From a candidate division WWE3 bacterium RAAC2_WWE3_1 (lineage in GTDB: Bacteria; Patescibacteriota; WWE3; UBA101185; UBA10185), in contig CP006914.1 of NCBI GenBank assembly GCA_000503835.1, forward strand, positions 157,218-221,217: DNA of 64,000 nt, read 5' to 3'. Position numbers and translations under genes: made by a program. The notes below the pieces were generated by a model. It saw nothing but the letters and a program-made list of their open reading frames with translations, did not search any database and had not been told where the DNA came from. Positions within the stretch are counted from its first letter, which is position 1; each line of letters starts with the position of its first letter. Below, in pieces: positions 26,552 to 40,865 of the stretch.

Positions 26552-27772
26552 GTGGCTATTCTAAATATTCGTAGGTACAAATTTTGGATCATCCTGCTGT
26601 TCTTATTTTCAAGTACGGTGTTAGTTTCGGCACTTGTTTTTTTAAGAGATTACATAGAGTACCGTGCAGAAAAAAAGGCAATAGAAGCGGAACAAAGACA
26701 GGTATACGTTGATCGTTTAGGGACGGCGGGGTCTTCGGGCGACTGCGCCGAGGTACAGGAAGTCGAGTATTACACGTACTCAGGTGACGATTCTCTTTGG
26801 AAAGAAAACAATAAGTTCGGTATATATATTTATGCGGAAGTAGACGAATTTTTTGACCGAGCCGAAGAACTTGTCAATTCCGGTAAGGGCGATTGGGGTT
26901 ATGTACTAATCCCTTACAACGTAAAGGACAAAAGTTTCGAAAAATGGAATAACGTTTTTAAAAAACTTAACGACAAACACTTGATCCCGGTCTTTCAACT
27001 ACACGATATAGATCCGGATGACTACAAAGACCAGACCGAGGAGGCCGCCGCATTTCTGAACAGATTCGTCTGGCCCCTAAGATACAGGTACATTAGCGTT
27101 TACAACGAACCTAATGACCGTAAGTTTTGGTACGATAGGGTAGATCCCGAGGAATATGCGAAAATACTGGATTATACAATTGATGTTTTTAAAGAAGAAA
27201 ACCCGGATTTTTTTATGATGAACGGTGCCTTTAACGTAACAGCTCCGTCCGATGATAATCACATGGATTCTTTAGAGTACATGCGGCGCATGGAAGTTTC
27301 GGAGCCCGGTATTTTTAAAAAACTCGATGGTTGGGCTTCGCATTCGTATCCTCAACCTAACTTTTCGGGTGACCCGTACAACGAAGGAAGGTGGAGTATA
27401 AAAGCGTACGAAACTGAACTAAGTTATCTTAAGAAGGTACTTAAGATCGGCAAGGACCTGCCCGTCTTTATTACCGAGACAGGCTGGGCCCACGCGGAAG
27501 GCACGGATTACAACAGTAATTACCTGCCAGTCGCCACAATTTCGGAATATTTTGAAAAAGCATACGAAGATGTGTGGCTTAAGGATGGGCGCGTCAGGGC
27601 AGTGATGCCGTTCACGATAAGATATGATCCTCCTTTTGACCATTTTTCATGGCTTAACGCCGACAATGTTCCTTACGAACATTTTGATGTGATTAGGGAT
27701 ATGAAAAAGGTAGAGGGAAAACCTCCCGCACTTGTCGTAAATAAAATTAAGGTCGGGGGTTGCGGACAATGA
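26552..27772 (+). CDS. Membrane-anchored clan GH-A (GH5/GH39-like) glycoside hydrolase
   Basis: N-terminal TM. Acid/base-like YNEPN and nucleophile-like VFITETGW motifs spaced as in (beta/alpha)8 clan A hydrolases. Confidence 0.5.
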   Translation: MAILNIRRYKFWIILLFLFSSTVLVSALVFLRDYIEYRAEKKAIEAEQRQVYVDRLGTAGSSGDCAEVQEVEYYTYSGDDSLWKENNKFGIYIYAEVDEFFDRAEELVNSGKGDWGYVLIPYNVKDKSFEKWNNVFKKLNDKHLIPVFQLHDIDPDDYKDQTEEAAAFLNRFVWPLRYRYISVYNEPNDRKFWYDRVDPEEYAKILDYTIDVFKEENPDFFMMNGAFNVTAPSDDNHMDSLEYMRRMEVSEPGIFKKLDGWASHSYPQPNFSGDPYNEGRWSIKAYETELSYLKKVLKIGKDLPVFITETGWAHAEGTDYNSNYLPVATISEYFEKAYEDVWLKDGRVRAVMPFTIRYDPPFDHFSWLNADNVPYEHFDVIRDMKKVEGKPPALVVNKIKVGGCGQ

Positions 27773-32370: not shown

Positions 32371-32408
32371 TTGACTTGCGTCAGGTCGGATACTACAATA
32401 CCTAGTAA
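32371..32408 (+). promoter_or_regulatory. Sigma70-like promoter (TTGACT-17-TACAAT) overlapped by inverted repeat TACTA-N7-TAGTA; near-leaderless start of blaI-like gene
   Basis: TTGACT at 32371-32376, a 17-nt spacer, and TACAAT at 32394-32399. Inverted repeat TACTA at 32391-32395 / TAGTA at 32403-32407. The ATG at 32410 has no Shine-Dalgarno. Confidence 0.5.
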
Positions 32409-32409
32409 C

Positions 32410-32808
32410 ATGAGCAATAAAAGGGTTACAGGCAAAGTATTGGGTAATCTGGAATCCGAGGTAATGGAAATTATCTGGAGTCTAAAAGGCGAGGCTTCGG
32501 TCAAATGTGTGGCCGAAATTTTAAGCAAAAAACGCAAAATCGCATATACAACCGTGATGACCGTCATGGCGAGACTAGCGAGTAAAGGTGTTCTGGTACG
32601 ACACATGAACGGGCCGAGCTATCTGTATAAACCCAAAGTTACAAAAGACCGATTTATAGCAAAAGCGGCCCACAGTATTTTTTCTTCGGCCGTTTCCAAC
32701 CTGGGTGATGAAGTGTTAGCTCATTTTATAAAAGAAATCCAAAAGATTAGTCCGAAGAAACGACAGGAGCTTTTGAAGATGCTGAACGAAGACCGAAAGG
32801 GTATTTGA
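32410..32808 (+). CDS. BlaI/MecI/CopY-family winged-helix transcriptional repressor
   Basis: EVMEIIWSLKGEASVKCVAEIL...IAYTTVMTVMARLASKGVL matches the penicillinase-repressor family N-terminal domain. No CopY-type C-terminal Cys motif. Confidence 0.8.
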   Translation: MSNKRVTGKVLGNLESEVMEIIWSLKGEASVKCVAEILSKKRKIAYTTVMTVMARLASKGVLVRHMNGPSYLYKPKVTKDRFIAKAAHSIFSSAVSNLGDEVLAHFIKEIQKISPKKRQELLKMLNEDRKGI

Positions 32809-32823
32809 CGCTTTTCTCGAATT

Positions 32824-33834
32824 ATGAAAAGAATTAATTTAAGTTTTTATGTATTACTTTTATCTTCGTTAAGTGTCGGTCTGGTTCTGACCGCCGTTTT
32901 ATATAAAGTTTCACCTTTCTTTACTTCAAGAACCCTTTTCCTTTGTCAAAAATTCGTTTCGGGCATGATGACGGAAATTCCCCGTCCGGTGTCTAACTTA
33001 CTCATTCTGGCTGTAGGGATAGTTGTAGGGACAGGGCTTTTATCTTTCCTAGTGCAACTTATCAAAACCCATATTTTCTTAAAAAAACTACTCGTAAAAA
33101 AGATTCCGGTATCCCGGGTGTTAGCAGGAGTCCTGGAAAAATTAAAACTTACAAAGAAAGTAGTTCTGGTTAAGGACGACAACCTGTTTTCTTTTTGTTG
33201 CGGTATCTTTTCCCCCTTTATAGTTGTGAGCACCGGTCTTGTGAGATCCCTGACAGTCAAAGAATTAGAGGCAGTTCTGTTACATGAACAATCTCATCTG
33301 ATAAGCAGGGATCCTGGTAAGGTCCTTCTGGGAAAAACATTTTCCTCTATGTTCTTCTTTCTGCCTATTTTTAGGGAGCTTCATAAAGATACGGAGGCAG
33401 TCAATGAACTGTTAGCGGATCAATGGGCGATCAGACACCAGGAAAATTCAACTTTTTTGCGCAGTGCCCTTAAAAAAATATTAGCGGCACCCGAAGTAAA
33501 TTTGGCAGCTGTTTCCAACGCATCCGGTCCGGACTATTTCGAGATAAGAATCCACCGTCTAGTGGACCCCGGCACAAAACACAAACTCAGGCCTTCACCG
33601 GTAAGCTTAGTGACGACCTTTTTGTTTATTTTGGTGGGGTGGTTCTCATTGCAAACTCCGGTCAATGCTTTTCATTCGGATACTATGAACAACAACGCTT
33701 ATCATTCGGATACTATTTTTTTATGTTCACACGATTGGGCCTGTTCCGAGGAGTGCAGGATTAACATTGAACAGCCCGTGAAATATATACCCGCCGACAT
33801 GCTCGTGCCCGAAAAGAAATGCGGAAACGATTAG
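32824..33834 (+). CDS. BlaR1/MecR1-like M56 zinc metalloprotease signal transducer lacking the penicillin-binding sensor domain, with Cys-rich C-terminal tail
   Basis: About 4 TM helices and an HExxH (LLHEQSHLISRD) zincin motif positioned as in the M56 family. Only 336 aa. C-terminus CSHDWACSEECRIN...KKCGND. Confidence 0.72.
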   Translation: MKRINLSFYVLLLSSLSVGLVLTAVLYKVSPFFTSRTLFLCQKFVSGMMTEIPRPVSNLLILAVGIVVGTGLLSFLVQLIKTHIFLKKLLVKKIPVSRVLAGVLEKLKLTKKVVLVKDDNLFSFCCGIFSPFIVVSTGLVRSLTVKELEAVLLHEQSHLISRDPGKVLLGKTFSSMFFFLPIFRELHKDTEAVNELLADQWAIRHQENSTFLRSALKKILAAPEVNLAAVSNASGPDYFEIRIHRLVDPGTKHKLRPSPVSLVTTFLFILVGWFSLQTPVNAFHSDTMNNNAYHSDTIFLCSHDWACSEECRINIEQPVKYIPADMLVPEKKCGND

Positions 33835-33938
33835 AATGTGTGCCGTTTTTCTATCCGGTTTCCTCTTATTTTCTTATTGACAAAACTCAGGTAGTTCTAC
33901 TACACTGAGTAGTAGTTCATTTAGAAAGGAGGTATCTT

Positions 33939-34202
33939 ATGACGGAAACTCAGAAATCAGAAACAAATACAACTCCCATTCAGGAAAGCACAGTAATCGT
34001 ACGTGTCCCCAAACCAAATCTACAGGTTGTGGTGCTGGGACTCATAGCTCTTATCACTCTTTTTCAAACTTTTCAACTGATGCGTATTAGTGCTAAAGCC
34101 AGTACGGTATCGGTAAAATCCGCTCCCGCCACTACCACTAATAGCGGAACCGGCACGGGAACCGATTCGGATGTACCGGAGTCAATGGTTGGAGGCTGCT
34201 AA
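33939..34202 (+). CDS. Small membrane protein (87 aa) ending in GGC
   Basis: Strong Shine-Dalgarno AAGGAGG at 33926-33932, one TM helix, Thr/Gly-rich tail. Confidence 0.45.
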   Translation: MTETQKSETNTTPIQESTVIVRVPKPNLQVVVLGLIALITLFQTFQLMRISAKASTVSVKSAPATTTNSGTGTGTDSDVPESMVGGC

Positions 34203-34226: not shown

Positions 34227-35459
34227 ATGAACTGGAAAAGTGTTTTATCAGATGTTGGTTCCGGGGTGAGGAGTAAGAAAGAAGACTTAAATATCACGTG
34301 GCCAAAGATAATTTTGAGCATCGGATTTTTGGCCGCTGTTATCGGAGCCCTTGTTTCAACCGAAACCCTTGCAACCATCAATAAAAATATTGCCAAAGCG
34401 GAAGAAGAAGCCCGTCCTGCCGAGGTGGCGATAGTTAAGATAATTACCCCCGATTGCCGTTATTGTTTTAATGTCGACTTGGCAGTGAATGATTTTAAAA
34501 AGCAAAATGTTAAAGTAGTGGAAGAAAAAACTTTAATTTACGGTTCCCCGGAGGCCGAAGCCTCGATCAGGCAGTTTTCAATTCAAAGAATTCCTACTTA
34601 TATTGTTTCAGGAGAAATAACCAAAAGTAATATTGAGAGTTTTGTTAAAAGTACCGGAGAAGTTAGAGGAGCCGCCGAAGACACATCGACAAGCAATGCT
34701 TTTGTTTTTACCAAGGTCACACCTGTTTATATCGATACCGAAAGTAACCAGGAAATGGGCAAGGTAACGGCAACTATATTGAGCGACCCGTCGTGTACTC
34801 AGTGTTTGGACCCTAAATTGACGATAGAGGGTTTTAAAAAGTCCGGAATAAAAATAGTCGACGAAAAAGAGATAGTTTGGAACTCTTCCGAGGGTAGGAA
34901 AATTATTGATCAGTTCAAAATTACTAAATTACCCACCTTTATTCTTTCCCCTGAGATAGATATCTACGATAACGTTAGGTCAAACTGGGCTAATATCGGA
35001 ACAATAGAGCAGGATAAAACTTATGTGGCGAGAAATTTGTTCTTTCCATACAGAGACATAGAGAAGGGCGGAATATTGGGATTGGTCGATTTGGTGTATC
35101 TTGTCGATTCAAGCTGCGGCGATTGTTACAAGGTCGACACCGTCCAGAAACCCATTCTTGAACAGGGATATGGCGTTCGTTTTCGTTCTGAAAGGACAGT
35201 TGACGTTTTATCCGAAGAGGGACAACGTTTGACGAATAGATACAAAATTACTAAACTTCCCACAATACTGTTATCACCCGATGTAGCTCAGTACACAAAT
35301 CTGCAAAAAATCTGGAACGGTGTCGGAACGATTGAACAGGACGGTTGGTATGTATTCAGGGAGATGCAGCAATTGGGCGGAGCTGTTTACAAAGATTTGG
35401 CAACCAATCAGACGGTCGGAAAGACGCCTGCAGTATCCGGCACGGGGGGAGCACAATAA
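34227..35459 (+). CDS. Membrane-anchored protein with three tandem thioredoxin-fold (DsbA/Trx-like) repeats, each with a CxxC motif
   Basis: N-terminal TM, then three ~110-aa repeats carrying CRYC, CTQC and CGDC. Each is followed by a conserved ...KITKLPT(F/I)(I/L)LSP(E/D)... and ...GTIEQD..YV segment. Confidence 0.7.
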   Translation: MNWKSVLSDVGSGVRSKKEDLNITWPKIILSIGFLAAVIGALVSTETLATINKNIAKAEEEARPAEVAIVKIITPDCRYCFNVDLAVNDFKKQNVKVVEEKTLIYGSPEAEASIRQFSIQRIPTYIVSGEITKSNIESFVKSTGEVRGAAEDTSTSNAFVFTKVTPVYIDTESNQEMGKVTATILSDPSCTQCLDPKLTIEGFKKSGIKIVDEKEIVWNSSEGRKIIDQFKITKLPTFILSPEIDIYDNVRSNWANIGTIEQDKTYVARNLFFPYRDIEKGGILGLVDLVYLVDSSCGDCYKVDTVQKPILEQGYGVRFRSERTVDVLSEEGQRLTNRYKITKLPTILLSPDVAQYTNLQKIWNGVGTIEQDGWYVFREMQQLGGAVYKDLATNQTVGKTPAVSGTGGAQ

Positions 35460-35464
35460 TAATT

Positions 35465-36745
35465 ATGAACTCATTATTAGCACCATTAAAAATTATTTTC
35501 AGAGAGTCTTTTTACAGGCACGTAGCTTTCTTCACGATCCTGGCATTCGGTTACCTTTCCTATTGGCTATTTTACAAGAGCACAACTTTCGAAACCTACC
35601 TGTTAAATATGAAGACCGGGGATTTTGGAGAGTTCAGTGTTGCATACGGCGTTACTTACATATCTACAACAATTTTGACAATTATTTTATCCGGGATAAG
35701 CGTGGCTACAGTTTTTTGGCTTTACCGTCATTCCAAGTTGAGTCAGATCAGGAATATCGGCGCAAATCTTGGGGGGCTAATCGCAGCCTTTTTCGGTACA
35801 GGCTGTCCCGTATGCGGAGCGTTCTTATTGTCAGCGATCGGTGTAACAGGAGGACTGGCCGTATTTCCCTTACAAGGACTGGAACTTAAATTTTTAAGTT
35901 TGGGTCTTATCGCAGGGTCATTATTTTACGGTGTTAAGAAGGTACACGAAATGATTCACTGCGACGATTGTAATGATATCTCACACGACCGCAAAAGCCG
36001 CACAAGTGAAAAAAAAGGCCGCAGGTTTTTTATTTTGCCGCTAAGAGACACTCTTATATACACTCTGGCAGGACTTTTCCTTGTCAACCAATTTTTAATT
36101 GCGCAGGTTTCTGCGGCTATGGGTATGGTTGCTAATAAGGGATTAGTAGCCCAGCTTTTGGGCATACAAACCAGGTCTACCTACACCATAATTGCTCCCA
36201 AAATAAATCCCGACAAAAAGACCACTTCGCTTGCCGAATGGCCGACAATCACTGAAGTTCCGGCCAATCCGAATAGTGGAAACGCACTCGCCGATGCCAA
36301 GGTAGTAATGATTGCGACCGGTCAGCCTTTTTATGCCCCAGAAAATGTCTCGTTTGATGACCCGATTAATGCCCAAAAGAAATGGGGGGCATTTGAAAAA
36401 TCCATAAAACTGTCAACGGAACAGGAAGCAAGATACCAAAGACTTATCGGTACTATGATGACCTGCAGCTACTGTTGCGGCGGCCCTAAAAATGTAACTA
36501 TGAATAAAAACTGCGGATGTGCTCACGCAAAAGCCGTGAGAGGATTTTACCGCTACATGATCCAGAATTACGGCGACAAATACTCTGATGAACAATTGGT
36601 AGGCGAGTCACATCGATGGTACGCCTTGTGGTACCCGAAAGGAATGCTTGAAGATTATTTGCTGGCTACCGGTAACGAAAGTGCATTACCTCACACGTCA
36701 CACGGAGGTGCAGGTTCAGACGGAAGGCACGGAATCGCGAAATGA
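35465..36745 (+). CDS. Cys-rich polytopic membrane protein (TM CPVC, loop CDDC, C-terminal CSYCCGG/CGC cluster)
   Basis: Start reassigned to ATG at 35465 (MNSLLAPL...), immediately after the stop of the upstream gene. About 4 TM helices; GTGCPVCGAFLLSAIGVTGG lies in a TM segment. The alternative overlapping frames at 35320/35345 are rejected. Confidence 0.6.
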   Translation: MNSLLAPLKIIFRESFYRHVAFFTILAFGYLSYWLFYKSTTFETYLLNMKTGDFGEFSVAYGVTYISTTILTIILSGISVATVFWLYRHSKLSQIRNIGANLGGLIAAFFGTGCPVCGAFLLSAIGVTGGLAVFPLQGLELKFLSLGLIAGSLFYGVKKVHEMIHCDDCNDISHDRKSRTSEKKGRRFFILPLRDTLIYTLAGLFLVNQFLIAQVSAAMGMVANKGLVAQLLGIQTRSTYTIIAPKINPDKKTTSLAEWPTITEVPANPNSGNALADAKVVMIATGQPFYAPENVSFDDPINAQKKWGAFEKSIKLSTEQEARYQRLIGTMMTCSYCCGGPKNVTMNKNCGCAHAKAVRGFYRYMIQNYGDKYSDEQLVGESHRWYALWYPKGMLEDYLLATGNESALPHTSHGGAGSDGRHGIAK

Positions 36746-37089
36746 TCAATTTCATCGATTACCTCGATTTTTTCATATTTATAGGCGGAACTGTAATACT
36801 CGTAGGTATACTTTATTTTTTCTTCCGTGATTCCTTAAAGGATATTTTTATTTCGGAGGATGACATAGCGGAGCCTGAAATTTCAAAACGTTCGCCCGTT
36901 GTGGAAATATTATTTTCCGAAGACCGTAAAAATAATCCGTCATCGGCTTTGATTAAAAAGATAGGGGCGGTTTTTATAGCTATTATTATCGGCGGTTTTG
37001 TGCTGAACCAGTTCCTGATGTGGAAAATGACCTCTTCCGCTATTTCGGAAAGGCCTTTCGATATAAATATTAGTATTTCTAAAAAATGA
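36742..37089 (+). CDS. Small membrane protein
   Basis: 115 aa, two hydrophobic helices, translationally coupled to the upstream gene (4-nt overlap). Confidence 0.4.
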   Translation: MINFIDYLDFFIFIGGTVILVGILYFFFRDSLKDIFISEDDIAEPEISKRSPVVEILFSEDRKNNPSSALIKKIGAVFIAIIIGGFVLNQFLMWKMTSSAISERPFDINISISKK

Positions 37090-37096
37090 GAAAAAT

Positions 37097-37648
37097 ATGA
37101 CAACAGAAACCAAGGTTTTAATAAGTGTCGCGATAGTTACAGTCGCTCTCCTCGGAGGGGGTGTGTGGTTTATGAGTAATCAGACTGCCGGAGAACAGGC
37201 TAAACTAAGTCGACCGTTAATGGGCGAAACCACCCCGGATCAGGGAGCCGCGCACATACCGGAAGGTACAACGGCGGAATACAGCACGAATCCTCCGACA
37301 ACCGGTCCGCACTACGGAAAGTCCCAGTCCGCTGGTATTTACGATATGCCGATACCGGATGGAAACCTTTTACATAGCATGGAACATGGGGCGGTCATAA
37401 TTTGGTATAAAGCAGCCAATGGGTCAGAGGACGGAGGCTTATCCGGTCAGGATATTGAGCGGCTAAAACAGATTTTCAGCTCGGTTGCCGTTAATAAGAA
37501 AATCATGGTGCCGAGGGAAAACCTTGATGTTCCGGTAGCTCTAACCTCCTGGGGTAGATTACTTAAGCTTCAGACAATCGATGAAATCCAAATCAAAGCT
37601 TTTATGGAGACGAATGAAGACAGGGGTCTTGAAAAAGCGCCGCTCTAG
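37097..37648 (+). CDS. Membrane-anchored DUF3105-like protein
   Basis: N-terminal TM. PTTGPHY and HSMEHGAVIIWY match the conserved Gly-Pro-His and His-x-x-E-H-G segments of DUF3105. Confidence 0.6.
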   Translation: MTTETKVLISVAIVTVALLGGGVWFMSNQTAGEQAKLSRPLMGETTPDQGAAHIPEGTTAEYSTNPPTTGPHYGKSQSAGIYDMPIPDGNLLHSMEHGAVIIWYKAANGSEDGGLSGQDIERLKQIFSSVAVNKKIMVPRENLDVPVALTSWGRLLKLQTIDEIQIKAFMETNEDRGLEKAPL

Positions 37649-37790: not shown

Positions 37791-38246
37791 ATGGGTGAAT
37801 TAATTGTAAGTAAAGACATTTTGAAGAAGGCGTCATTAAAAGGAGCCATTTCTTTTACCGTTCTCTTGTCGGTGTACTTCCTGATTCTAACGCTAGTTTC
37901 GGGATGGAACTTTGCCTGGGTGCAGTTTACGCAGTTTTGGTATTACATCCTGACTCTCGCTTTAGGATTTGGTATACAATTTACCCTTTACAGCTACCTT
38001 AGAGATGTTGTGAAACAAGCTTCTACAGGACAAGTTTTGGCTACAACAGGGGCAACGTCGACGGCAGCCATGATATCCTGCTGTGCTCACTACTTAACCA
38101 ACATCCTGCCCGTTTTGGGGGTAACAGGAATTATTACTTTTATTGGCCAGTACCAGGTTCAATTTTTCTGGGCCGGATTATTTTTTAATCTTCTTGGGAT
38201 ACTTTACATCGGAAATAAAGTTTTGAAAGTTTCGGGACGAATATGA
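37791..38246 (+). CDS. Polytopic membrane protein with MerT-like vicinal-Cys helix (MISCCAHYLTNILPVLG)
   Basis: 151 aa with about 4 TM helices. The CC motif sits within a helix followed by Pro/Gly, as in MerT TM1. Confidence 0.5.
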   Translation: MGELIVSKDILKKASLKGAISFTVLLSVYFLILTLVSGWNFAWVQFTQFWYYILTLALGFGIQFTLYSYLRDVVKQASTGQVLATTGATSTAAMISCCAHYLTNILPVLGVTGIITFIGQYQVQFFWAGLFFNLLGILYIGNKVLKVSGRI

Positions 38247-38722
38247 AGAAAACTACAGTTATTTTTATCGTTATATTAATAGTTATTTTGGTTATCGTGC
38301 TTAAAAATAGTCTTACCGTAAATATAGGCCCTAAAGATATAGGTACGCCTGCCGGCACAAACGGTTCTTTCCAAAACACAAATAGCAACAACGGCTTGGA
38401 AACAAAAGAAAGTAACGACGGTCCGGTATCCGTCACCGTTACGCCTCTTGATGTAGGGGATAACGCATCCCTATGGAGTTTTGACATCGCGCTAAACACT
38501 CATTCTGAGGAGATTGGAGAAGATCTGACTGTTGTGTCCGTGCTTATAGATGACGGAGGAAAGACATACAGACCTATATCGTGGGAAGGTTCAGCTCCGG
38601 GAGGCCACCATCGTAGCGGTGTTCTAAAATTTAGTGCTATATCACCCAGACCTAATACTCTGGAGTTAAAAATAAACAATGTCGGCGGAATTTCCGAAAG
38701 GAGCTTTAAGTGGGAGCTTTAA
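38243..38722 (+). CDS. Membrane-anchored beta-rich protein with His-rich patch (APGGHHRSG)
   Basis: N-terminal TM, then a predicted beta-sandwich-like extracytoplasmic domain. No family assigned. Confidence 0.45.
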   Translation: MKKTTVIFIVILIVILVIVLKNSLTVNIGPKDIGTPAGTNGSFQNTNSNNGLETKESNDGPVSVTVTPLDVGDNASLWSFDIALNTHSEEIGEDLTVVSVLIDDGGKTYRPISWEGSAPGGHHRSGVLKFSAISPRPNTLELKINNVGGISERSFKWEL

Positions 38723-38729
38723 AAAGTTT

Positions 38730-39323
38730 ATGAGTGAAAAGAAAGTCATTGTAATAGTTTCCGTAATCACGATAGCTTTGCTCATAGTGCCTACCTTTCT
38801 AATTGGCGGCAATAAAGGTGACAACTCTTCTAAAACTTCGACGGAGGCCGCATCTCTTAACGAGTTAGTTGGAAGATCTGCGGCTGATTTTACCCTGGAA
38901 AGTTATAATGGCGACAAAACAACTCTGAGTAGTCTTAAAGGTAAAAACGTAATCCTCTTTTTTAATGAAGGTCTCATGTGCTATCCGGCTTGTTGGGATC
39001 AGATTGCCGCTTTCGGGAAGGACACCGAATTTGCAGATAAAAATACGGTGGTATTAACTATTGTGACCGATTCAAAAAAAGATTGGGAAGGTGCAGTTGA
39101 AAAAATGCCGGAGCTTACCGGGGCAATTGTCTTACTCGATACTAACCGAAAGGTATCCGTTTCGTATAAAATGCTATCGCTTCCTTCCTCGATGCATAGA
39201 GGCCAGACTCCGGGGCATACTTATGTAGTTATTGATGCCGAGGGTATTGTTCGCTATGTTAAAGATGATGTTCAAATGGCTGTCAGAAATCAGGAGTTAC
39301 TGGCGGAGATAGGAAAACTATAA
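38730..39323 (+). CDS. Membrane-anchored thioredoxin-fold protein, Sco1/SenC- or redoxin-like (CxxxC)
   Basis: Start moved to ATG at 38730, after the upstream stop. TM anchor. GKNVILFFNEGLMCYPACW has C-x3-C in the Sco1-type position, with a conserved His about 85 aa downstream (SSMHRGQTPGH). Confidence 0.65.
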   Translation: MSEKKVIVIVSVITIALLIVPTFLIGGNKGDNSSKTSTEAASLNELVGRSAADFTLESYNGDKTTLSSLKGKNVILFFNEGLMCYPACWDQIAAFGKDTEFADKNTVVLTIVTDSKKDWEGAVEKMPELTGAIVLLDTNRKVSVSYKMLSLPSSMHRGQTPGHTYVVIDAEGIVRYVKDDVQMAVRNQELLAEIGKL

Positions 39324-39326
39324 TCT

Positions 39327-40193
39327 ATGGAACTTTTAATTAGTGCATCATTTATAGCATCGTTCTTTGCGGGAATCGCAGCACTTTTTGCCCCCTGCTG
39401 TATCACTGTTCTCCTGCCGACTTATTTCGCTTCCATTTTTAAGCAGAAATCTACCGTGTTTTTGATGACCTTTGTTTATTTTCTCGGTATCCTGTCGATC
39501 TTTCTTCCTATCGGTCTCGGAGTTTCATTTCTCACCCAGCTTTTCAGCCAATACCATGACACCATTTTCCTCATCGGCGGAATATTTTTGATATTTCTGG
39601 GGATGACTTTACTTCTCGGACAACAAATGTCTTTACCTTTCAGCGTCCACCCGAAATTAAAAGGGCAGGATTTTGTGTCGGTTTATGTCTTAGGTGTATT
39701 TTCAGCCGTCGCAACCACCTGCTGCGCCCCCGTACTAGCAGGAGTCCTGACTTTGTCGGCGCTTCCCGGATCGGTGTTCTTAGGCGGAGTTTATACTCTT
39801 GCTTATGTACTGGGCATGGTCCTGCCTCTTTTCATTATCGCCTTTACTTTAGACAAGGTCGATTTTACTCAGAAGTTCGTTGCCTTTAGAAAGAGAATCT
39901 CTTACTCTGTGCTCGGTCAAAAGGTAAGTCTGACTTTTGCTAATCTATTCTCCGGGCTAATGTTCCTGGTTCTGGGCATTGTTATAATTTACCTTGCCAA
40001 GACAAGCCAGCTGACATCCCACTCCTCATACCAGGTTTCGTTGAATATATACCTGACAAAATTTATTAACGGGATAGGACGGTTTACGCAGGTTATTCCC
40101 GAGGCAGGATGGGCTGCCATTTTCATCCTTGTCACACTGTTCGTTACTTTTACTGCCATCAGACAATTTATAAATTTAAAGAAAAGGAAGTGA
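39327..40193 (+). CDS. CcdA/DsbD_2-like transmembrane protein with two MerT-like vicinal-Cys helices
   Basis: 8 predicted TM helices. FAPCCITVLLP and ATTCCAPVLAGVL lie in separate helices. Confidence 0.6.
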   Translation: MELLISASFIASFFAGIAALFAPCCITVLLPTYFASIFKQKSTVFLMTFVYFLGILSIFLPIGLGVSFLTQLFSQYHDTIFLIGGIFLIFLGMTLLLGQQMSLPFSVHPKLKGQDFVSVYVLGVFSAVATTCCAPVLAGVLTLSALPGSVFLGGVYTLAYVLGMVLPLFIIAFTLDKVDFTQKFVAFRKRISYSVLGQKVSLTFANLFSGLMFLVLGIVIIYLAKTSQLTSHSSYQVSLNIYLTKFINGIGRFTQVIPEAGWAAIFILVTLFVTFTAIRQFINLKKRK

Positions 40194-40199
40194 TTTTGA

Positions 40200-40865
40200 A
40201 TGAATAAAAACGGACTTATTGCAACTTTGGGCACCGGGCTGATTTTGGGTTTAGTTATACTTATAAGCAATTTTAATATTCGGATAGATGTAAATAGTAA
40301 CGATGGCCGGGAGCCTATCGGCAGACAGATGACACCGCAGGCACAGGATGACTCTATGGCGGGTCATCACGGAGGTGGCACACCGGCCGACGCCACTCTT
40401 TTTAACGACTTGGTCGGTAAAACGGCGCCTGACTTTACGTTGGAAAGCTACGATGGAAAAAAGATAACTCTTAGTGAGCTGAAGGGTCAGAACGTCATTC
40501 TTTTCTTTAATGAGGGCCTCATGTGCTACCCGGCCTGCTGGAACCAGATTTCTGCTTTCGGCAAGGATACTGCATTGCAAAGTAAGGCTGTGGTACTAAA
40601 CATCACGGTCGACCCCAAAAATAACTGGAAACAGGCCGTAAATAAAATGCCTGAACTTGCCGGTGCCACGGTACTTTTTGACAGCAGTAGGGAAGTCTCT
40701 AAGAAATACGGAGTTTTAACTCTGCCGTCATCAATGCACAAAGGTCAATTTCCGGGGCACAGCTATGTAATAATAGACAAAGAAGGAACAGTTAAATTTA
40801 TCAGGGACGATGTTTCTATGGCGGTAAGAAATGATGAGCTATCTGCGGAACTGGACAAGTTGTAA
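40200..40865 (+). CDS. Sco1/SenC- or redoxin-like thioredoxin-fold protein, paralog of 38730-39323, with His/Met-rich N-terminal segment
   Basis: About 60% identical to the upstream paralog over the folded domain, with the same LMCYPACW and SSMHKGQFPGH motifs. N-terminal segment DSMAGHHGGG. Confidence 0.65.
   Translation: MNKNGLIATLGTGLILGLVILISNFNIRIDVNSNDGREPIGRQMTPQAQDDSMAGHHGGGTPADATLFNDLVGKTAPDFTLESYDGKKITLSELKGQNVILFFNEGLMCYPACWNQISAFGKDTALQSKAVVLNITVDPKNNWKQAVNKMPELAGATVLFDSSREVSKKYGVLTLPSSMHKGQFPGHSYVIIDKEGTVKFIRDDVSMAVRNDELSAELDKL

What the first reader, a model, noticed from the sequence alone, without database searches (positions are those of the whole stretch)
35465..36745. Cys-rich membrane protein with CxxC in a TM helix, CxxC in the adjacent loop and a C-terminal CSYCCGG...CGC cluster
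The protein has a TM CPVC motif, a loop HCDDC motif and a C-terminal soluble domain with MTCSYCCGGPKN...KNCGCAHA, with no family assignment. The arrangement (Cys pair in a helix, then a second pair in the next loop) is reminiscent of DsbB/VKOR-type quinone-linked oxidoreductases, but the order and spacing differ. It could be the membrane redox partner of the triple-Trx protein or a metal-binding module. Note the overlapping alternative frames in the ORF track (35320 and 35345 starts), which are artefacts of a locally GC-rich stretch.
Basis: seen in the sequence. Interest (0 to 1): 0.5.

Follow-up and report, generated by a model that had tools for sequence, protein, structure and literature searches.

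The report
Cysteine-relay membrane protein of a metal-stress cassette
This gene encodes an uncharacterised membrane protein of ultra-small bacteria and archaea that lines up conserved cysteine groups inside the cell, within the membrane and outside it, and most likely passes toxic soft metals such as copper or mercury (or reducing power) across the cell envelope.

Summary
The ORF is real: 35465-36745 (+), 426 aa. All nine Cys are conserved and no Pfam, NCBIfam or PDB sequence match exists. It fuses two modules that also occur as separate proteins (1293 relatives in CPR bacteria and DPANN archaea).

- **Membrane module.** Four helices with an invariant CPxC in helix 3 and a Cys pair in the next, cytoplasmic loop. 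Profile comparison puts it nearest MerT (72-77% probability). It shows no similarity to CcdA.

The DsbB/VKOR reading fails, because the loop Cys pair faces the cytoplasm.

The gene sits in a conserved cassette: a BlaI-type repressor, an M56 protease, an 87-aa tethered protein ending in invariant ...MVGGC, a triple thioredoxin, then the target. In relatives the cassette often lies next to CopA, CsoR, MerA or Cd/Zn ATPase genes.

Best reading (0.42): a thiolate relay for Cu(I)/Hg(II) across the membrane. Main rival (0.30): a relay of reducing equivalents to envelope thiols. Sequence analysis cannot separate the two.

The parts
35465..36745 (+). Target ORF, 426 aa: fusion of a 4-helix Cys-pair membrane module, an anchor helix and an extracytoplasmic Cys/His domain
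35465..35974 (+). N-module (aa 1-170): four transmembrane helices. It also occurs as stand-alone 150-220 aa proteins
35804..35815 (+). C114-P-V-C117 inside helix 3. C, P and C are invariant in all alignments
35957..35971 (+). H-C166-D-D-C169 in the K/R-rich cytoplasmic loop after helix 4. hhalign aligns it with MerT C76/C82
36041..36118 (+). Helix 5 (aa 193-218), an anchor with invariant F205, N208 and Q209. The 'GGF-x-x-NQ' motif is shared with other anchored exo-proteins of these islands
36170..36742 (+). Extracytoplasmic C-module (aa 236-426), pLDDT about 80-97. It is homologous to stand-alone anchored proteins whose model is CcmH-like
36464..36526 (+). Cys/His cluster C334-x2-C337-C338-x11-C350-x-C352-x-H354, invariant in 60 divergent homologues. 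C337, C338, C352 and H354 are also kept in the type-B variant
36692..36730 (+). C-terminal H410-x2-H413-GGAG-x-DG-x-H422 motif, invariant within the close family
33939..34202 (+). 87-aa single-pass membrane protein with a Ser/Thr/Gly linker and an invariant C-terminus ...VPESMVGGC. Stand-alone C-modules carry the same tail on their own C-terminus
34227..35459 (+). Membrane-anchored triple thioredoxin-like protein. Three CxxC pairs are always kept, with variable middle residues. Present in 45 of 47 loci
32371..32808 (+). BlaI/CopY-type repressor (Penicillinase_R, 96 bits). The real start is probably the ATG at 32410
32824..33834 (+). BlaR1-like M56/M48 membrane zinc protease with a Cys/His-rich C-terminal tail
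33877..33915 (+). Promoter-like site TTGACA-18-TACACT overlapped by the perfect dyad CTACTAC-N5-GTAGTAG, a candidate BlaI-type operator for the small-Trx-target transcript
37791..38246 (+). 151-aa paralogue of the N-module with a vicinal CC in helix 3 (S-C-C-A-H-Y-L)
   Evidence: (HH probability 90.8%, P=1.2e-6, 144 columns)
37097..37648 (+). DUF3105 protein, a recurrent neighbour (16 of 47 loci)
38679..40865 (+). Redoxin, CcdA-like (DsbD_TM) and second redoxin: a conventional route for delivering reductant to the envelope, in the same gene string

Best explanation
The protein is the membrane core of an inducible envelope module for soft-metal and thiol stress. It works as a cysteine (thiolate) relay that hands a thiophilic ion, Cu(I) or Hg(II) and possibly Ag(I)/Cd(II), from one Cys site to the next across the membrane.

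**Shown.**
- The protein has five helices and is N-in, C-out.
- One Cys pair (CPVC) lies inside helix 3, a second (HCDDC) lies on the cytoplasmic loop after helix 4, and a 5-Cys/1-His cluster sits in an extracytoplasmic helical domain.
- The two modules also occur as separate proteins and are fused only to each other.
- The gene is always linked to a triple thioredoxin and to a membrane-tethered arm ending in ...MVGGC.

**Inferred.**
- The outer Cys/His cluster, helped by the terminal Cys of the arm and by the thioredoxin CxxC sites, captures the ion at the cell surface.
- Ligand exchange then moves it to CPVC in the membrane and on to the cytoplasmic CxxC, as in MerP to MerT C24/C25 to MerT C76/C82.
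- In the cytoplasm, whatever sink the island provides disposes of it: MerA, CopZ/CopA, a Cd/Zn ATPase, or the thiol buffer.
- The triple thioredoxin and the nearby CcdA/redoxin pair keep the outer thiols reduced.
- The inward direction is assumed by analogy only. An outward relay is not excluded.
For: **Conservation.** The CPxC and the following Cys pair are the only invariant or near-invariant side chains of the membrane module across 32 divergent members.

**MerT similarity.**
- hhalign of that module against MerT aligns both Cys pairs in register over 70-78 columns, with probability 72-77% and P=2-3.5e-5.
- Controls score far lower: reversed 20.6 and 30 column shuffles at most 18.4, against 37 for the real comparison.
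- CcdA families from the same loci give P=0.05-0.7.

**Topology.** The positive-inside rule and the architecture of homologues both give N-in, C-out.

**Outer-domain chemistry.**
- The universally kept core is CC + C-x-H plus a tail Cys, a ligand-like set. The CcmH-type CxxC is lost in type-B homologues.
- Many stand-alone relatives carry His-rich or Cys-rich cytoplasmic N-termini.
- The close family adds an invariant HxxHGGAGxDGxH tail.

**Neighbours in relatives.**
- Cu P1B-1 ATPases score above the curated cut-off in L004, L008 and L009, and a Cd/Zn type in L005.
- A true MerA scores 519 bits against a cut-off of 454, beside a MerR-family gene.
- CsoR, a cupredoxin, an HMA chaperone, a CopM-like protein and Met-rich proteins also occur.

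**Precedent.** MerT-MerP fusions show that a metal-capture domain can be fused at the outer C-terminus of MerT. L013, a MerT-family gene, carries a C-terminal GMTCAAC domain.
Against: - The MerT similarity is below the level that proves homology, and no MerT model reaches Pfam or NCBIfam thresholds.
- The window itself holds no MerA, P1B ATPase or HMA gene. Only about 9 of 47 loci have an ATPase within 6 kb.
- The best fold match of the outer domain is CcmH, a thiol-disulfide oxidoreductase, not a metal chaperone.
- The obligatory partner is a thioredoxin-fold protein.
- Importing copper makes little physiological sense unless the aim is to clear the envelope.
- No coordinates could be read, so the geometry of the Cys cluster and of the docked tail is unknown.
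Confidence: 0.42

Rival explanations
1. Transmembrane reductant relay, working like DsbD/ScsB plus CcmG/CcmH. Cytoplasmic thioredoxin reduces C166/C169. The disulfide is passed to C114/C117 in the membrane, then to the CxxC of the CcmH-like outer domain. That domain reduces the triple thioredoxin and/or the Cys of the MVGGC arm, which repair envelope proteins mis-oxidised under copper, mercury or oxidant stress.
For: - hhalign places C334-x2-C337 in register with the CcmH LRCxxC. The match is weak (P=0.004; shuffles score at most 16).
- The triple thioredoxin abuts the gene and is present in 45 of 47 loci, with all three CxxC pairs kept.
- Cys pairs sit on both faces and within the membrane.
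- Copper-stress islands of other bacteria are known to carry DsbD-like/Trx-like Scs systems (established knowledge, not tested here).
Against: - There is no similarity to DsbD/CcdA.
- A separate CcdA plus redoxin/Trx pair already lies in the same string here and in about 25-30 of 47 loci.
- The CcmH-type CxxC is not the conserved feature. Type-B homologues lose C334 and keep CC + CxH.
- His-rich segments and invariant His residues are unexpected for a pure disulfide relay.
- The CxxC middle residues of the thioredoxin domains vary freely.
- No precedent is known for a disulfide cascade through a CxxC within one helix.
Confidence: 0.3
2. Scaffold or co-sensor. The outer Cys/His cluster is a structural zinc site or disulfide knot. 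The protein mainly assembles or reports envelope thiol/metal stress to the BlaR1-like M56 protease, without moving anything across the membrane.
For: - BlaI- and M56-type genes are adjacent in about 30 of 47 loci, in both CPR and DPANN.
- A Cys3His core is typical of structural Zn sites.
- Stand-alone C-modules have exactly 6 Cys, which could form 3 disulfides.
- Polar N/Q residues in the anchor helices suggest assembly of a membrane complex.
Against: - A purely structural role does not explain an invariant CPxC inside a helix together with a cytoplasmic Cys pair.
- It does not explain the exclusive fusion of the membrane module to this outer domain.
- The cassette also occurs under CsoR control without BlaI/M56 (L008).
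Confidence: 0.12
3. DsbB/VKOR-like disulfide-generating oxidase for the triple thioredoxin.
For: It has a CxxC in a helix plus a second pair nearby, and it is linked to an exported thioredoxin-like protein.
Against: - The second pair is cytoplasmic (and the architecture).
- No DsbB or VKOR model matches.
- The module is MerT-like.
- No quinone-related or respiratory genes were seen in any of the loci examined. CPR bacteria generally lack quinones (established knowledge).
Confidence: 0.03

Closest known systems
MerT mercuric ion transporter (Pfam PF02411), including MerT-MerP fusions
   Same: - It has a Cys pair inside a transmembrane helix, a conserved L-E about 23 residues later at the outer loop, a second helix, then a second Cys pair on the cytoplasmic loop and a further helix leading outside.
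- Both pairs align in register by hhalign (probability 72-77%).
- A metal-capture domain can be fused to the outer C-terminus.
   Different: - The helix motif is CPxC rather than vicinal CC.
- There are two extra N-terminal helices.
- No MerT model reaches threshold.
- The outer domain is not an HMA/MerP fold.
- There is no mer operon in the window.
- The family is confined to CPR and DPANN.
CcmH/NrfF/CycL periplasmic thiol-oxidoreductase domain (Pfam PF03918; PDB 2hl7, 2kw0)
   Same: - It is a membrane-anchored, extracytoplasmic small helical bundle with a CxxC at the start of a helix, and it works next to thioredoxin-like and CcdA/DsbD-type proteins.
   Different: - It carries an inserted Cys-rich hairpin (CC...CxCxH) and an extra N-terminal subdomain.
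- The 'LRC' signature is absent, and the CxxC is lost in type-B relatives.
- No heme-lyase or Ccm genes are present.
- Sequence similarity is weak (P=0.004).
- The fold match was not recovered with the window protein's own full-length model.
DsbD/CcdA/ScsB transmembrane reductases
   Same: They have Cys residues positioned to pass something across the membrane to thioredoxin-fold partners, and they occur in copper-stress contexts.
   Different: No sequence or profile similarity exists. Both membrane Cys lie in one helix rather than in two pseudo-symmetric helices. A genuine CcdA is encoded separately nearby.
Flexible C-terminal Cys tails of MerA (...CC) and of high-Mr thioredoxin reductase (...GCUG)
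   Same: A mobile C-terminal segment ends in a Gly-flanked Cys and shuttles a metal ion or reducing equivalents to a buried Cys site. This is an analogy for the ...MVGGC arm, drawn from established knowledge.
   Different: Here the arm has a single Cys, is extracytoplasmic, and in this cassette is a separate membrane-tethered polypeptide.

Membership tests
MerT (PF02411) | Cys pair inside the first helix of a three-helix core | tested here: met
   C114/C117 lie in helix 3 and are invariant. The motif is CPxC, not CC.
MerT (PF02411) | Second Cys pair on the cytoplasmic loop between the second and third helix of the core | tested here: met
   C166/C169 lie in a K/R-rich loop, followed by helix 5 and an exported domain. 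They align with MerT C76/C82.
MerT (PF02411) | Match to the curated family model above its cut-off | tested here: not met
   No hit at E<=0.1. MerT appears in 2 of 32 module members, at E=0.47 at best.
MerT (PF02411) | Profile-profile similarity indicating homology | tested here: inconclusive
   Probability 72-77%, P=2-3.5e-5, 70-78 columns. Reversed and shuffled controls score at most 20.6 against 37. The MerT profile had only 4-5 sequences.
MerT (PF02411) | Operon with merR, merP and merA | tested here: not met
   None in the window. A true MerA with a MerR-family gene occurs in one related locus, L006.
MerT (PF02411) | Hg(II) uptake activity | not testable with these tools
   Needs uptake or hypersensitivity assays.
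CcmH/NrfF (PF03918) | Small periplasmic helical-bundle fold | tested here: inconclusive
CcmH/NrfF (PF03918) | Conserved LRCxxC redox motif | tested here: not met
   C334-x2-C337 aligns in register, but the Leu-Arg is absent and type-B homologues lack C334.
CcmH/NrfF (PF03918) | Match to the curated family model | tested here: not met
   No hit for the protein or for any of 60 module members at E<=10.
CcmH/NrfF (PF03918) | Association with heme-handling Ccm genes | tested here: not met
   No Ccm heme-lyase or chaperone families appear among the genes called in 12 related loci.
DsbB / VKOR | Both Cys pairs exposed on the extracytoplasmic side of a four-helix bundle, and a match to the family model | tested here: not met
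   The loop pair is cytoplasmic (plus architecture). No model matches.
DsbD_TM / CcdA (PF02683) | One Cys in each of two pseudo-symmetric helices, and a match to the family model | tested here: not met
   Both Cys lie in one helix. There is no Pfam hit. hhalign against two CcdA families from the same loci gives P=0.05-0.7.

The most novel reading that the evidence does not exclude
CPR bacteria and DPANN archaea share a previously undescribed four-part envelope system:
- a membrane-tethered peptide arm ending in an invariant ...LPxMVGGC-COOH;
- a triple thioredoxin;
- a CcmH-like Cys/His outer domain;
- a MerT-like Cys-pair membrane module.

Together these would form a new class of thiol-relay transporter or oxidoreductase. 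The C-terminal Cys arm would shuttle a metal ion or a mixed disulfide between the parts. A BlaR1/BlaI-type proteolytic switch that senses metal or thiol stress rather than beta-lactams would turn the whole system on.
Probability: 0.35. Interest if true: 0.8.

Novelty: new variant of a known kind. Interest (0 to 1): 0.62.

Why it matters
- CPR bacteria and DPANN archaea are abundant, mostly uncultured and poorly understood at the envelope. This cassette is one of the few multi-gene modules they share, and none of its core parts has a family name.
- If it is a thiolate relay, it extends the MerT principle of moving a soft metal by Cys-to-Cys exchange to copper-type islands and to a new architecture with an outer Cys/His domain and a swinging C-terminal Cys arm.
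- If it is a reductant relay, it would be a third solution, after DsbD and CcdA, for sending reducing power across a membrane.
- Either way it offers a testable handle on how ultra-small episymbionts survive metal or oxidant stress.
- It also suggests that BlaR1/BlaI-type switches have been recruited to sense something other than antibiotics.

Tried and rejected
- **Family and PDB searches.** Pfam and NCBIfam scans found nothing for the protein, its two modules or 92 module homologues. PDB sequence searches also found nothing.
- **DsbB/VKOR and DsbD/CcdA readings.** Both were rejected on topology and on lack of similarity.
- **A general C-terminal tag.** I considered that ...VGGC might be a general tag of CPR surface proteins, because the glycosidase-like ORF 26552-27772 ends in KVGGCGQ. 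Twenty homologues keep one near-terminal Cys in a variable context plus a second conserved Cys near the start of the domain. That pattern points to a structural disulfide, so the idea was rejected.
- **Informative fusions.** I looked for N-module fusions to HMA or thioredoxin domains, which would have decided between metal and redox. Only fusions to the two outer-domain types exist.
- **Literature.** Searches for MVGGC, DUF3105, CPR plus BlaR1, and CcmH/MerT/copper found nothing relevant.
- **Promoter and terminator scan.** Counts were no better than chance. Only the shared dyad was worth noting.
Full report
**1. The observation**

The region holds a real gene on the + strand. The mechanical ORF starts at a TTG at 35345. 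The coding start is the ATG at 35465. It lies five bases after the stop of the upstream gene and behind a GGGGGGAG ribosome-binding-like run, and it is where 33 homologues begin.

The 426-aa product has nine Cys, at 114, 117, 166, 169, 334, 337, 338, 350 and 352. Among 34 homologues of 54-87% identity, eight are invariant and C166 is at least 90% conserved. H354, H410, H413 and H422 are also invariant.

No Pfam or NCBIfam model matches, and no PDB sequence does.

**2. Who has it**

The identical protein is on record as a hypothetical protein of an uncultured bacterium (ACD_25). 386 close relatives are all unnamed proteins of Patescibacteria.

A scan of one genome per species found it in these CPR groups: Daviesbacteria, WWE3, Levybacteria, Roizmanbacteria, Woesebacteria, Pacebacteria, Kerfeldbacteria, Saccharibacteria and Parcubacteria. 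In more divergent form it occurs in the DPANN archaea Woesearchaeota and Aenigmatarchaeota.

**3. It is a fusion of two modules**

A profile search of 1.8 billion representatives found 1293 relatives at E<=1e-3. They show that the two halves also live apart.

- The N-module (profile positions 1-170) occurs as stand-alone proteins of 150-220 aa.
- The C-module (about 270-400) occurs as single-pass anchored or lipoprotein-signal proteins of 200-280 aa.

In 32 divergent N-modules the only invariant residues are C114, P115, C117, G126, P135 and G138. E140 and C166 are nearly invariant. Many stand-alone members end right after the second Cys pair.

In 60 divergent C-modules the invariant residues correspond to C334, C337, C338, C350, C352 and H354, plus one Gly.

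A second outer-domain type (YRPCC...DCxHG...FWFP) is fused to the N-module in proteins of 470-550 aa. It is homologous to the C-module (HH probability 96.5%, P=8e-10) but keeps only C337, C338, C352 and H354.

Every N-module fusion inspected is to one of these two outer domains, never to an HMA or thioredoxin domain. The two modules therefore work together.

**4. Topology**

Hydropathy, the predicted helices and K+R counts across the family give an N-in orientation.

| Segment | Mean K+R | Side |
|---|---|---|
| N-terminus | 2.8 | cytoplasmic |
| Loop 40-59 | 1.1 | outside |
| Loop 89-97 | 2.1 | cytoplasmic |
| Loop 126-138 | 0.1 | outside |
| Loop 164-192 | 4.0 | cytoplasmic |

The C-module must be outside, because its stand-alone homologues carry N-terminal signal anchors or lipoboxes. 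One helix separates it from the HCDDC loop, so that Cys pair is cytoplasmic. CPVC sits within helix 3.

It points instead to a relay across the membrane.

**5. What the membrane module resembles**

By eye and by hhalign, residues about 99-179 align with MerT residues about 10-95. The Cys pair in the helix, an L-E 23 residues later, the next helix and the cytoplasmic Cys pair all fall in register.

- Against one MerT sequence, the probability is 42%.
- Against 4-5 MerT sequences taken from plasmids, it is 72-77%, P=2-3.5e-5 and score 37.
- A reversed profile scores 20.6 and 30 column shuffles score at most 18.4.
- CcdA families from the same loci give no signal (P=0.05-0.7).

This is suggestive but not proof of homology, and curated MerT models do not match.

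The window holds a paralogue of the module at 37791-38246, with a vicinal CC in the same helix (HH probability 90.8% over 144 columns). A third relative with CxxxC is common in related loci.

**6. What the outer domain resembles**

In the full-length model the outer domain is confident (pLDDT about 80-97) but the membrane part is poor. Fold searches with that model gave nothing specific.

Profile comparison with nine CcmH sequences is weak but in register. The helix ending in R-Y...C-x-x-C matches R...L-R-C-x-x-C, and S-D-x-Q-I matches S-D-x-E-I. The score is 23.3 with P=0.004, against at most 16 for shuffles.

The domain therefore has a CcmH-like scaffold with an inserted Cys-rich hairpin. 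It is not a CcmH family member:

- no CcmH model matches;
- the LRC signature is absent;
- type-B relatives lack the first Cys of the CxxC.

**7. The conserved cassette and the Cys-tailed arm**

In 47 related loci (some redundant) the neighbours recur as follows.

| Neighbour | Loci out of 47 |
|---|---|
| Triple thioredoxin | 45 |
| Small single-pass protein | 41 |
| M56 protease | 31 |
| BlaI-type repressor | 30 |
| CcdA-like protein | about 25-30 |
| DUF3105 | 16 |
| P1B ATPase | 9 |
| CsoR | 4 |

The small protein (window 33939-34202) always ends in ...P(E/Q)SMVGGC.

50 of 59 stand-alone C-modules end in the same ...LPx(M/Q)VGGC and have exactly six Cys. Type-B proteins end in ...GGCG(A/V). 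The tail is thus part of the outer-domain machinery. In this cassette it is supplied in trans on a flexible Ser/Thr/Gly tether.

In the P0169 model the last 17 residues have pLDDT of about 89, so the tail is predicted to dock rather than to be disordered. The coordinates could not be read.

The triple thioredoxin keeps three CxxC pairs and exactly six Cys in nearly all homologues, but the two middle residues vary freely.

DPANN-like loci carry the same set of genes in a different order.

**8. Metal context**

Related loci place the cassette next to a range of metal genes.

- Copper P1B-1 ATPases score above the curated cut-off in L004, L008 and L009, and a Cd/Zn-type ATPase with ArsR occurs in L005.
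- L008 carries a csoR-cupredoxin-copA string that runs straight into the small-Trx-target genes.
- L004 has an HMA chaperone.
- L006 has a bona fide MerA (519 bits against a cut-off of 454) with a MerR-family gene.
- L009 and L010 have Met-rich and TRASH-like proteins.
- L061 has a cupredoxin, a rhodanese and a ferric-reductase-like pair.

Many stand-alone C-modules carry His-rich cytoplasmic N-termini.

The window itself has none of the classical metal genes. Its string continues with a truncated remnant, DUF3105, the CC paralogue, a small exported protein, redoxin, CcdA and redoxin, and then an ArsR-family gene.

**9. Mechanism**

The anatomy is a chain of thiol sites: cytoplasm (CxxC), membrane (CPxC), outside (CC/CxCxH plus the tail Cys), then the thioredoxin CxxC sites.

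Two readings fit this chain.

- **Soft-metal thiolate relay on the MerP/MerT model (0.42).** I favour it for four reasons. The membrane module is MerT-like and unlike CcdA. The universally conserved outer core is a ligand-like CC + CxH rather than the CcmH CxxC. His-rich and Cys-rich appendages are common. The islands are metal islands. Direction is inferred only by analogy.
- **Reductant relay feeding a CcmH-like domain and the triple thioredoxin (0.30).** The fold match and the obligatory thioredoxin partner support it. A separate CcdA/redoxin route in the same string, and the loss of the CxxC in type-B relatives, weaken it.
- **Scaffold or sensor role (0.12) and the DsbB/VKOR idea (0.03).** Both are less likely.

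**10. Novelty and verdict**

No literature was found on the family or the tail, and no curated family covers either module. It works like known thiol relays, so I file it as a new variant of a known kind. It is not a member of MerT, CcmH, DsbB/VKOR or DsbD.

Its chemistry, metal against electrons, remains to be tested.

Noticed in passing
window 33939-34202 (+): An 87-aa single-pass protein has an invariant C-terminus ...VP(E/Q)SMVGGC in all related loci. Fifty of 59 stand-alone homologues of the target's outer domain carry the same tail. AF2 predicts the tail to be ordered (pLDDT about 89).
   Followed up: yes
window 32371-32409 and 33877-33915 (+): Two promoter-like sites have a related dyad over the -10 box: TACTAC-AATACC-TAGTA before the BlaI-type gene, and a perfect CTACTAC-ACTGA-GTAGTAG before the small-Trx-target genes. 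These are candidate operators of the BlaI-type repressor. The repressor ORF probably starts at the ATG at 32410, not the TTG at 32371.
   Followed up: partly
window 37791-38246 (+): A 151-aa four-helix protein with a vicinal CC in helix 3 (SCCAHYL) is a paralogue of the target's membrane module (HH probability 90.8%). It is present in the loci where the outer domain lacks a fused membrane module.
   Followed up: partly
window 36742-37089 (+): This 115-aa ORF has BLAST matches in L006, L003 and 14 other related loci. It resembles the middle (last helix plus 'GGF-x-x-NQ' anchor) of larger proteins there, which carry an N-terminal CxxxC helix module and a C-terminal HxHAD...HMHA outer domain. It looks like a truncated remnant.
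   Followed up: partly
window 26552-27772 (+): A glycosidase-like CPR protein ends in ...KVGGCGQ, which resembles the Cys tail. Twenty homologues keep a near-terminal Cys in a variable context plus a second conserved Cys near the start of the domain. This is probably a structural disulfide, not the tail motif.
   Followed up: yes
window 33650-33834 (+), C-terminus of the M56 protease: The BlaR1-like protease has no penicillin-binding sensor domain. It ends in a Cys/His-rich stretch (AFHSD..AYHSD..CSHDWACSEEC...KKCGND), a possible metal or thiol sensor.
   Followed up: no
window 38679-39323 and 40200-40865 (+): Both AhpC/TSA-redoxin genes flanking the CcdA-like gene carry C-Y-P-A-C (CxxxC) and a later G-H-T/S His. 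The pattern recalls Sco-type copper chaperones rather than peroxiredoxins.
   Followed up: no
P0251: A protein has a cytochrome c domain N-terminal to an N-module. Under the N-in topology the cytochrome would be cytoplasmic, so this is either a gene-call fusion or an extra helix.
   Followed up: no
L061 4488-10948: A type-B fusion protein sits between a P-type ATPase and a cupredoxin/COX2-like protein, a rhodanese, a ferric-reductase-like membrane protein and an NAD-binding flavoprotein. This is a possible copper-reduction context.
   Followed up: no
L018, L019, L022, L023, L025 and others: Several MAG records titled 'uncultured Gammaproteobacteria' carry this CPR-type cassette at 55-74% identity. 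The taxonomic labels of these binned assemblies look unreliable.
   Followed up: no
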